Assembly: GCA_964016885.1 (NCBI GenBank)
Contig: OZ024763.1
Location: 29,574,001 to 29,638,000 of the forward strand
Length of the DNA: 64,000 nucleotides
DNA from: Eledone cirrhosa
Taxonomy: Eukaryota
Reading direction: 5' to 3'
In this document: one piece after another, positions 14,127 to 15,926 of the stretch
Numbering within the stretch: position 1 is the first letter of the stretch
How the letters are laid out: every line of letters begins with the position of its first letter
Program-made: the position numbers and the translations under genes
The notes under the pieces: generated by a model
Seen by the model: the letters and a program-made list of their open reading frames with translations, nothing else
What the model was told of the DNA's origin: nothing
The model's database searches: none

Positions 14127-14210
14127 TATACTTGTCGAGCCCTCTTCGGATTTTAGTCCTCACCTTTATTATTATTACTATATATAGAGATAGATAGATA
14201 GATAGATAGA

Positions 14211-15096
14211 TTTCTTTATTTGCCACAAGGGCGGACAAGAAAAGGGGACAATACAAAGACACATGCCGGGGATTTTACATACAGTCGTGTAAAAAAAAAT
14301 ATAAAACAAACAAACACTTATAACAATCGAAATCCCCAATAGGGGAAGCACCACAAATGGGTTGTTTAATACCCCGTCGATAGAACAACCCTCAACTTCA
14401 GGAGCGTGTTGTGCAAGTGCTCCCTTCTTTCTTTTGCTCTCTTCTTCAACATACAGGCTTATAAACAAAGAAGGCCCAATCACTCGGGCCATTTTCGCTT
14501 CATTCTCCCACTTTTCAGTAAATTTACTGGGGTGCAGTGCCTCTCTCTCCACCCTGATTCTTCTTCTAAAGTGATACTTAAAGAAGGAATCAATTGTTGT
14601 CCTGAGAGAAAGGCATCTGTCCTCAGTCCTCTCAATCTCGTCCACCATATAACTTCTTTGACTATAGCCACCGTACAGAGGAAAACCGCCTCTCTTTCGT
14701 TTTTGAAAGAGGCTGGCGGTTTGATCCTTACTATGGACTCGGCAGTCAACTGGATTTGTCCAATACGCGACAGCAGTTGTTCTGCATAGTTCTACAGGTC
14801 GGTTACGCCCGGGCAGTGTACAATTGCGTGCAGGACTGTTTCACTGTCCTGCGCGCATCTAGGACACGTCCTCTTGGAAGGATCCCTACCGGGGCGTCCA
14901 TGCCTGTAGATCTTGTCACAAACCGGTAGAGCTCCTCGTTAGCACTGCCAGGCCAGGGACCTCTGGAAGTTGTTCATAGGTCCCGAGCGGAAAGTCCTAC
15001 CAAACAGACTGGTGAGCTCATCATCGTCGACGCCTAGAAGTCTCTCCGAGCACGTCGTCGCCCTTATAACGTACAATCCCTCTATAGAATGTTGAA
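14211..15096 (-). mobile_element. Older, diverged Tx1-like LINE 3' fragment of the same lineage
   Basis: Translations TAESIVRIKPPASFKNEREAVFLCTVAIVKEVIWWTRLRGLR and FRRRIRVEREALHPSKF match the young ORF2 C-terminus. (GATA)n lies on both sides. Confidence 0.9.
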
Positions 15097-15110
15097 GATA
15101 GATAGATATG

Positions 15111-15480
15111 TTTCTTTATTAGTCACAGGGGCACAAAGGAAGGGGACAAATACAAAGGGGGGAGTTTACATACAATAAAAACGTGTAAAATATTATCACA
15201 AATGGATTTAAAAATTAATCGATTTTCCCAAATAGGGGTAACACATACCCCCGAAAAAAAAATGTGCAACCCTCATCTCCAGGAGTACGAAGAGTTTGTA
15301 CTCCTTTCCTCTCCTCCTCTTTTTCCTCAACCTACAGGCTGATATAGAGAGAAGGCCCATTCACTCGGGCCATTCTCGCCACTTTCACCCACCTTTCATA
15401 AAACTTGCTGGGGGTACAGCACCTCTCCCTCCATCCTGGTTCTTCTTCCAAAGTGGTATTTGAAAAAAAGAATCAGTTGT

Positions 15481-15481
<1 letters not shown>
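15111..15481 (-). mobile_element. Tx1-like LINE 3' fragment (~370 bp)
   Basis: Homologous to the ORF2 end (gaaggcccattcac.cgggccattctcgccactttcaccca) and the 3' UTR; GATA-flanked. Confidence 0.88.
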
Positions 15482-15514
<33 letters not shown>

Positions 15515-15515
15515 T

Positions 15516-15636
15516 GTTTCTTTTTATTTGCCACCAGGGCATAAAAAAGTGGGACAAGTACAATGGGGGGAGTTTACATAACAAGGCGTCCTCAATAAGG
15601 AGGAGGCAATAACAAAATATAAAAATGAAATAAAAT

Positions 15637-15637
<1 letters not shown>
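15516..15637 (-). mobile_element. Tx1-like LINE 3' UTR tip (~120 bp)
   Basis: Matches 34620-34740 (tttgccac.agggcat.aaaagtgggacaagtaca...ggcgtcctcaataaggaggaggcaataacaaaatataaaaat); GATA-flanked. Confidence 0.88.
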
Positions 15638-15680
<43 letters not shown>

Positions 15681-15926
15681 ATAGATATTGCTTTCCAGAT
15701 GGTTTCTTACGAATGAAACAGTTATACTTCTGTAGAGGTTATTTCTATAGTACGACCAATATACATATCTACTATCAAAGTATTGAGTATCTTTTTTGGC
15801 AGCAATTGCCTCCCGACTTACACCTGGAATGTAAGTATGACACACACACACACACACACTCATATATATATATATATATATACAATATTAAATAAATGGA
15901 AAACTATATTTATAAAACCATATTTA

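What the first reader, a model, noticed from the sequence alone, without database searches (positions are those of the whole stretch)
14188..15690. Independent older array of three diverged subfamilies in another (GATA)n tract
Three 3' fragments (~890, ~370 and ~120 bp) have clearly different 3' UTRs, the same orientation, and GATA repeats between them. Different subfamilies hitting one tract cannot arise by simple tandem duplication. This is the best internal evidence for repeated, long-lived targeting of (GATA)n.
Basis: partly seen in the sequence, partly recalled or inferred. Interest (0 to 1): 0.7.

Follow-up and report, generated by a model that had tools for sequence, protein, structure and literature searches.

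The report
Retrotransposon stack in a GATA microsatellite
Three truncated tail-ends of one LINE retrotransposon family, from at least two and likely three separately evolved lineages, sit head-to-tail inside a GATA microsatellite, which likely means that this family (probably from an octopus-like animal) aims its insertions at GATA repeats, a new target for a known kind of microsatellite-seeking element.

Summary
Minus-strand fragments A (886 bp), B (374) and C (125) share the same 3' terminus, have different 5' breakpoints, and are flanked and separated by (GATA)5.5/3/8/12. They are 77-79% identical to each other. They belong to an L1-group, Tx1-like LINE (APE endonuclease, RT, zinc finger) whose young copies Y1-Y3 form a second GATA array at 34.6-42.2 kb. 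A and B differ from Y mostly at synonymous sites (dN/dS 0.25 and 0.17; neutral decay simulates at 0.88). They therefore come from separately selected lineages, not from local duplication and decay. One correction: C is 93% identical to Y, so it is the young lineage or its sister, not a third deeply old family. All 12 of 12 element junctions are GATA, including both arrays' outer flanks. Two 10-12-nt terminus stubs sit in GATA tracts, and spacer composition is locus-specific. All this favours a pre-existing genomic target over an RNA tail. Insertion timing is not resolved: co-active lineages could have built the array quickly. The kind is known (Kibi, Koshi, crocodilian Tx1). Ten literature searches found no (GATA)n target; Repbase/Dfam were not checked. 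Interest 0.42.

The parts
14189..14210 (+). (GATA)5.5 tract at the 3' end of A (outer flank of array 1)
14211..15096 (-). Fragment A: 5'-truncated LINE 3' end, 886 bp; about 647 nt of ORF2 C-terminus (zf-RVT; residues ~841-1055 of the young ORF) plus about 239 nt 3' UTR; two in-frame stops (14939-14941, 14792-14794) and two single-base frameshifts (near 15038 and 14586)
   Evidence: zf-RVT E 4e-4; 76% nt and 70% aa identity to Y1
15097..15108 (+). (GATA)3 spacer between A and B
15109..15482 (-). Fragment B: 374 bp; last ~151 nt of ORF2 (one frameshift in the G run at 15410-15414) plus 223 nt 3' UTR
   Evidence: 81% nt and 85% aa (47 codons) to Y1, 79% nt to A
15483..15514 (+). (GATA)8 spacer between B and C
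15515..15639 (-). Fragment C: 125 bp of 3' UTR only, Y-lineage type
   Evidence: 92.7-93.5% to Y1-Y3, 77-78% to A and B
15640..15687 (+). (GATA)12 tract (one AATA unit) on the 5' side of C, followed by non-element DNA; cannot be the tail of a recognisable element
34545..34563 (-). Terminus stub (~12 nt, A-type junction) plus (GATA)2-3, just outside the young array
   Evidence: likely an aborted insertion (inference)
34577..34616 (+). GATA/GATG tract at the 3' end of Y1
34617..38293 (-). Young copy Y1, 3677 bp, 5'-truncated at the first APE motif; ORF2 with APE, RT and zf-RVT; one stop at 38048-38050
   Evidence: Exo_endo_phos E 5e-8, RVT_1 E 5e-26
38294..38377 (+). GATA/GATG spacer, 21 units
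38378..40993 (-). Young copy Y2, 2616 bp, 99.7% to Y1
40994..41281 (+). GATA/GATG spacer, 72 units
41282..42229 (-). Young copy Y3, 948 bp, 98.9% to Y1; 5 of 5 coding differences synonymous
42230..42289 (+). (GATA)9(GATG)3 outer 5' flank of array 2, grading into a GT microsatellite
48907..48925 (+). Terminus stub (~11 nt, Y-type junction) embedded between (TATC)8 and (TATC)6 in a third tract, same polarity relative to the repeat
   Evidence: likely an aborted insertion (inference)

Best explanation
The array is a stack of three 5'-truncated 3' ends of one L1-group, Tx1-like LINE family, likely inserted independently into a pre-existing (GATA)n microsatellite that the element's endonuclease is predicted to cut, with A and B from separately selected lineages and C from the young lineage or its sister. 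Shown: common 3' terminus, different 5' ends, one polarity (element sense strand = TATC strand), GATA on both sides of every copy, APE-RT-zinc-finger ORF2 in the young copies, synonymous-biased divergence between lineages. Inferred steps: (1) the APE domain nicks the GATA strand; (2) the freed 3' end primes reverse transcription at the RNA's 3' end, possibly helped by pairing with a few UAUC bases; (3) synthesis usually aborts, giving copies from ~11 nt to 3.7 kb; (4) the tract is split, the target-site duplication is hidden in the repeat, and both halves remain targets and re-expand by slippage, so later elements of any lineage add to the stack. A is the most decayed (roughly 4-8% post-insertion change, rough estimate). 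The order of B and C is not determined.
For: 12 of 12 junctions of the six elements are GATA against a background of 2.3e-4 per position. The outer 5' flanks of both arrays and of the 48907 stub are GATA with no upstream element to own them as a tail. Of 17 terminus-core motif hits in the window, 8 are followed by TATC repeats and the other 9 by no simple repeat, although AT (339 runs), ACC (78), AC (55), AG (36) and ATC (33) runs outnumber AGAT (25). GATG variant units occur in 4 of 4 long tracts of array 2 and 0 of 4 tracts of array 1, including the tracts around the Y-like fragment C, so spacers reflect the locus. dN/dS: A-Y 0.25 (208 codons, p 8e-14), B-Y 0.17 (47 codons, p 2e-4), A-B 0.32 (46 codons, p 0.016); 300 neutral simulations gave mean 0.88, minimum 0.52, with 5.3 stops expected vs 2 seen. 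Y3 vs Y1: 5 of 5 coding changes synonymous (p 9e-4), so even the young copies come from different sources. Domain order APE-RT-zf-RVT; best solved relative LINE-1 ORF2p E 2e-45 vs R2 1e-19. Microsatellite targeting is established for Tx1-clade LINEs (PMC4494074, PMC3812793).
Against: One 64-kb window only; no genome-wide flank count. Seven other (GATA)3-5 tracts in the window are empty. The 41-43%-identical relatives form head-to-tail arrays with no (GATA)3 in 41 of 41 loci, so GATA targeting is not a trait of the wider lineage, and stacking can arise without it. No protein closer to A than the young ORF was found (best 63%), so dispersed A- or B-type copies are unproven. Tree support for A+B+Y and B+Y is weak (UFBoot 66, 65). 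5' microhomologies are only 1-3 nt, too short to test. A's excess of changes at conserved sites is significant against pooled intact ORFs (16/89 vs 14/233, p 0.002) but not against Y alone (7/80, p 0.11). Endonuclease specificity is untested.
Confidence: 0.78

Rival explanations
1. Tail-seeded homing: the element carries a (UAUC)n RNA tail, as RTE/CR1-type LINEs carry microsatellite tails, and has a relaxed endonuclease. Insertions land preferentially where the tail can pair, including earlier copies' tails, so the GATA tracts are made by the element and specificity lies in RNA-DNA pairing.
For: No poly(A) tail: the terminus runs directly into TATC repeats in 8 of 8 termini. 3' microsatellite-like tails influencing site choice are proposed for RTE LINEs (PMC6007223, passages). 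Tail pairing and nuclease specificity are not exclusive.
Against: The outermost 5' tracts of both arrays and of the 48907 stub have no element upstream. Spacer unit composition follows the locus rather than the lineage (C is Y-like but has pure GATA). The right flank of array 2 grades into an ordinary compound microsatellite.
Confidence: 0.15
2. Local tandem duplication of one insertion, followed by neutral decay and deletion, made the three fragments.
For: Same strand, adjacent, shared terminus. A and B share UTR features, both lacking a 19-column block. Distant relatives do form long homogeneous tandem arrays.
Against: Different 5' breakpoints. C is 93% to Y but 77-78% to its neighbours. A-B divergence is synonymous-biased (dN/dS 0.32, upper bound 0.90). 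B is closer to Y (85% aa) than to A (72%). No duplicated flank.
Confidence: 0.03
3. Passive accumulation: insertion is unspecific and copies survive in GATA tracts only because selection or deletion removes them elsewhere.
For: Proposed for Waldo-A/B near CA repeats in Drosophila (PMC3812793, passage). The window is gene-poor and microsatellite-rich.
Against: Copies are at exact GATA junctions on both sides, in one polarity, and never next to the far commoner AT, ACC, AC or AG runs; no other clear family remnant in the window.
Confidence: 0.04

Closest known systems
Kibi ((TC)n) and Koshi ((TTC)n), Tx1-clade LINEs of teleost fish; crocodilian Tx1 families in (TTCC)n/(TTTC)n (PMC4494074 section 15; PMC3812793 passage)
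   Same: APE-type LINE inserted specifically into a short microsatellite; the tetranucleotide crocodilian targets resemble (TATC)n in being TC-containing four-mers (my comparison; strand not checked)
   Different: Target here is (GATA)n/(TATC)n; host likely a cephalopod; no sequence of these families was available, so relatedness is untested
L1-Tx1 repeats annotated in octopus genomes (80 families, 56 Mb, 13 recently active in O. vulgaris, PMC13282606; expanded in coleoids, PMC8967140)
   Same: Same broad class and probably the same host group; the closest named proteins are Argonauta hians hypothetical proteins at 58-62%
   Different: Those papers report counts only; 'GATA' has 0 occurrences in either main text or in the one supplement searched. 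This family may already be among those consensus sequences without its target having been described
Waldo/Mino (R1 clade, ACAY and AC repeats), Dong (TAA repeats), Togen ((TG)n)
   Same: Microsatellite-specific non-LTR retrotransposons (PMC3812793, PMC4640811 passages)
   Different: Different clades (Togen is NeSL-related per PMC4640811; Dong as an R4-clade RLE element is recalled) and different targets; this ORF2 is L1-group
Unnamed two-ORF relatives on contigs CAXXMW010000002-18 (loci L001-L037, L040, L041)
   Same: 41-43% ORF2 identity, APE-RT-zf-RVT, AATAAA close to the terminus, no poly(A), head-to-tail stacking
   Different: Full-length 6.4-6.8 kb units with a zinc-knuckle ORF1 in near-homogeneous arrays, no GATA spacers (0 of 41 loci with three units)

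Membership tests
Non-LTR retrotransposon, L1 group | ORF2 with N-terminal APE endonuclease, RT and C-terminal zinc finger | tested here: met
   Pfam Exo_endo_phos E 5e-8, RVT_1 E 5e-26, zf-RVT E 4e-5 (below its curated cut-off) in Y1; zf-RVT also in A (E 4e-4)
Non-LTR retrotransposon, L1 group | RT closer to LINE-1 than to RLE-type elements | tested here: met
   PDB search: LINE-1 ORF2p E 2e-45 over residues 47-767; R2 E 1e-19 over RT only. I/CR1/RTE clades are not represented in that hit list, so the test is coarse
Non-LTR retrotransposon, L1 group | 3'-coterminal, variably 5'-truncated copies without LTRs | tested here: met
   Six copies of 125-3677 bp share one 3' end
Tx1 clade | RT phylogeny groups with Tx1/Keno/Kibi/Koshi | not testable with these tools
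   No named Tx1-clade reference sequence was available; the label 'Tx1-like' rests on architecture, L1-group affinity and site specificity (only Tx1 and R1 among APE clades hold site-specific members, PMC6007223 passage)
Tx1 clade | Separate ORF1 with zinc knuckle (recalled feature) | tested here: inconclusive
   No window copy extends 5' of ORF2; the 42%-identical relative L009 has an ORF1 with zf-CCHC E 1e-5
Microsatellite-specific Tx1 (Kibi/Koshi type) | One repeat type in more than 20% of flanks genome-wide (criterion in PMC4494074 methods passage) | tested here: inconclusive
   Met inside the window (12 of 12 junctions, plus 2 stubs), but these fall in only three tracts; genome-wide count not possible
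Kibi / Koshi families themselves | Target (TC)n or (TTC)n | tested here: not met
   Flanks are (GATA)n/(TATC)n; none of the termini adjoins the window's 36 AG/TC runs. It works like them but is not filed as a member
Microsatellite-specific Tx1 (Kibi/Koshi type) | Endonuclease cleaves the target repeat specifically | not testable with these tools
   Needs a cleavage assay

The most novel reading that the evidence does not exclude
A cephalopod-restricted Tx1-like lineage evolved a (GATA)n-specific endonuclease, kept it through several subfamily radiations (dS 0.5-0.8), and uses GATA tracts as renewable landing pads. Every insertion splits a tract into two new targets, so mixed-lineage stacks grow into a layered record of subfamily succession and help multiply GATA microsatellites in the host genome. 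Its 42%-identical relatives stack without GATA, so the pair brackets the origin of a new nuclease specificity.
Probability: 0.35. Interest if true: 0.62.

Novelty: new variant of a known kind. Interest (0 to 1): 0.42.

Why it matters
Few APE-type LINEs have a defined sequence target, and the mechanism of microsatellite targeting is described as poorly understood (PMC3812793). A (GATA)n-specific family with near-intact young copies, older sister lineages in the same tracts, and GATA-independent relatives gives a testable series for how an APE nuclease gains a target and for whether nuclease or RNA tail decides the site. It would also tie part of a microsatellite-rich genome's GATA repeats to an active LINE, and warns that GATA marker loci there may sit on repeat termini. 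It is a new target for a known strategy, not a new kind of system.

Tried and rejected
Local tandem duplication with decay: rejected by the codon tests and by C's affinity to Y. My first guess of a penaeid shrimp host (from composition, recalled): no support; the literature search gave 0 papers and the only named close hits are Argonauta. The host remains an inference, since closer hits (63-69%) are unnamed. A search for an A-type protein closer than the young ORF found none: 7 hits of 197 candidates, best 63%. The first genome-contig scan with the single ORF found 22 pattern matches and 0 relatives; the alignment scan found only 27-43% relatives. Rfam on 6 of those 41 loci: 0 matches, so no RNA-gene target was seen there. 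The PDB search with the endonuclease part alone gave only 4 weak unrelated matches (E 0.008-0.33). The consensus fold of four UTRs gave 23 pairs, 3 with a compensatory change, and an unfavourable covariation term (+1.44), too thin to claim a conserved structure. The pairwise-aligner codon counts had a small alignment artefact near residue 979, so the A and B figures were redone on the MAFFT alignment (A-Y dN/dS 0.28 became 0.25). Dating with a host clock was not pursued as a result: B has only 4 private changes in 46 codons against 16 for Y and 21 for A, so lineage rates are unequal. PMC3862624 was irrelevant (Tx1 there is a peptide name). Kojima and Fujiwara 2004 is not held, and the supplements of PMC4494074, which list Tx1 targets, could not be read; either may already name a GATA target. 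Source accessions for the closest unnamed proteins could not be obtained, and their DNA flanks in metagenome or viral collections stayed unchecked.

Full report
Observation. The window is gene-poor, microsatellite-rich animal-type DNA. At 14189-15687 the sequence reads (GATA)5.5, fragment A (14211-15096, 886 bp), (GATA)3, B (15109-15482, 374 bp), (GATA)8, C (15515-15639, 125 bp), (GATA)12. All three lie on the minus strand, end in the same terminus (an AATAAA-type signal, GAAA, then TATC repeats, no poly(A)) and have different 5' ends. They are 77-79% identical to each other with many gaps, far above shuffled controls.

What the element is. Three young copies form a second GATA-spaced array at 34617-42229 (Y1 3677 bp, Y2 2616, Y3 948; 98.9-99.7% identical). 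Y1 encodes an APE endonuclease (Pfam E 5e-8, read through one stop with X), RT (E 5e-26) and a zf-RVT finger. Its closest solved relative is LINE-1 ORF2p (E 2e-45; R2 1e-19). It is therefore an L1-group non-LTR retrotransposon. I call it Tx1-like from architecture and site specificity; no named Tx1 reference was available for a tree. Of 98 homologs at E<=1e-20, the two closest are an unnamed protein (69%) and an Argonauta hians protein (62%); the rest are 49% or less. A second Argonauta record appears. The host is thus likely an octopod (for taxonomy), but this is inference.

Are A, B and C separate lineages or a decayed duplicate? Against Y1, A shows dS 0.79, dN 0.19, dN/dS 0.25 (95% bootstrap 0.16-0.36; 208 codons). 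B shows dS 0.52, dN/dS 0.17 (0.04-0.46; 47 codons). A against B gives 0.32 (0.11-0.90; 46 codons). Neutral decay to the same distance gave a mean of 0.88 and a minimum of 0.52 in 300 simulations. Most of the divergence therefore arose in retrotransposing, selected lineages. C has no coding sequence. A small tree groups A, B and Y apart from database homologs with weak support (66; B+Y 65; 11 rows, C omitted as non-coding). No database protein was closer to A than Y is (best 63% vs about 69%), so dispersed A-type copies remain unseen.

Age. A has two stops and two frameshifts in about 647 coding nt, and differs at 16 of 89 otherwise invariant residues. Y, P0001 and P0100 differ at 7 of 80, 3 of 76 and 4 of 77 (pooled p 0.002; Y alone p 0.11); P0002 and P0101, left out of that pool, differ at 12 of 85 and 10 of 83. 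Compared with the simulation table, this suggests roughly 4-8% post-insertion decay, a loose estimate. B has one frameshift. Y1-Y3 have one stop among them. So array 1 is at least partly older than array 2. If the host is an octopus and the scale quoted in PMC13282606 applies (JC 0.09 at about 25 Myr), A would be about 10-20 Myr old; this is conditional. Private changes on 46 shared codons are A 21, B 4, Y 16, so rates are unequal and dS cannot be read as time. Several L1-Tx1 families are recently active at once in O. vulgaris (13, PMC13282606 Table 1), so mixed arrays need not take long to build.

Target or tail? All 12 of 12 junctions of the six elements are GATA, against 2.3e-4 per position outside the arrays. 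The outer 5' tracts of both arrays have no element upstream. GATG variant units occur in 4 of 4 long tracts of array 2 and in 0 of 4 tracts of array 1, even around Y-like C, so spacers follow the locus. Two further 10-12-nt termini sit in GATA repeats: an A-type one at 34545-34563 beside the young array and a Y-type one at 48907-48925 between (TATC)8 and (TATC)6 on the other strand, in the same polarity relative to the repeat. Of 17 terminus-core hits, 6 are the elements, 2 are these stubs, and 9 are followed by no simple repeat. A hand estimate from these counts puts two such coincidences at about 1e-4. No terminus adjoins the much commoner AT, ACC, AC, AG or ATC runs. Seven short (GATA)3-5 tracts are empty. 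Y3 differs from Y1 only at synonymous sites (5 of 5), so the young array is also built from separate sources.

Mechanism. Best reading (0.78): the endonuclease nicks the GATA strand and the nick primes reverse transcription from the RNA's 3' end. Synthesis is usually truncated, and the split tract leaves two fresh targets, so lineages pile up in one polarity. The nicking, priming and tract renewal are inferred from the geometry and from established target-primed reverse transcription; none was tested. The main rival (0.15) is tail-seeded homing through a UAUC RNA tail, as proposed for RTE tails (PMC6007223). It is not exclusive of the first. Passive accumulation (0.04) and tandem duplication (0.03) fit poorly.

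Evidence from elsewhere. A scan of bacterial/archaeal genome contigs with a 14-protein alignment gave 41 loci. 39 lie on contigs of one metagenome-assembled record (CAXXMW01) and are head-to-tail arrays of full-length two-ORF relatives at 41-43% identity, with a zinc-knuckle ORF1. They are probably animal DNA binned with a bacterium (inference). None of the 41 loci has three GATA units. Stacking is thus shared with relatives, while the GATA target seems restricted to the closer lineage. This limits how ancient the preference can be called, and it shows that arrays can form without it.

Comparison with what is known. Tx1-clade Kibi and Koshi target (TC)n and (TTC)n, and crocodilian Tx1 families target (TTCC)n/(TTTC)n (PMC4494074: passages and section 15 read; supplements unavailable). 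A review lists ACAY, AC, TC, TTC and TAA targets and no GATA (PMC3812793, passages). Togen targets (TG)n, and tandem insertion is noted for Utopia (PMC4640811, passages). Octopus papers count L1-Tx1 but give no target (PMC13282606 passages and one supplement; PMC8967140 and PMC9115989 passages). Ten full-text searches (listings only, apart from the papers named) showed no report of a (GATA)n-targeting LINE. The library lacks most subscription papers, including Kojima and Fujiwara 2004, and Repbase/Dfam were not available, so prior description is not excluded.

Verdict. The feature is real and is good internal evidence of repeated, independent insertion into (GATA)n by at least two, likely three, lineages of one Tx1-like LINE. 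It is a new variant (new target motif, probably a new host group) of a known kind. Interest 0.42.

Noticed in passing
window 34545-34563 (-) and 48907-48925 (+): 10-12-nt element termini embedded in GATA/TATC repeats, likely aborted insertions; the first has the A-type junction next to the young array, the second marks a third targeted tract
   Followed up: yes
window 34617-42229: Young three-copy array; Y1 is truncated at the first endonuclease motif and has one stop at 38048-38050; differences between copies are mostly synonymous
   Followed up: yes
L001-L037, L040, L041 (contigs CAXXMW010000002-18): 39 loci in a bacterial MAG record are tandem arrays of eukaryote-type two-ORF LINEs, probably mis-binned animal DNA; relative to the L009 unit the ORF2 region is 89-95% conserved in most other types while 5' UTR/ORF1 is about 65-72%, with a conserved ~220-bp block after each 3' end that may be a target or a terminal domain
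   Followed up: partly
L038 (CBDHHR010000099.1) and L039 (JALWDV010000429.1): More distant (27-30%) L1-group ORF2s amid microsatellites in two other MAG records, also probably eukaryotic contamination
   Followed up: no
window 42440-44407 and 44904-45323: 123-bp satellite (16 copies, 95% matches) directly after the young array, and a 91-bp repeat (4.7 copies)
   Followed up: no
window 15862-16180, matching 21682-22018, 33117-33280, 54390-54502: A different dispersed repeat (78-85%) right of array 1, possibly a SINE or MITE; imperfect inverted similarity between 15693-15915 and 16166-16375
   Followed up: no
window 22307-22345, 32302-32340, 45486-45524: Three copies of another short repeated sequence seen around an ATAAGAAA motif, unrelated to the LINE terminus
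   Followed up: no
window 14390-14425, 15282-15310, 34830-34870 (3' UTRs of A, B, Y1): A possible 8-bp hairpin just after the ORF2 stop is kept in A, B and Y with one compensatory change; too few sequences to call conserved structure
   Followed up: partly
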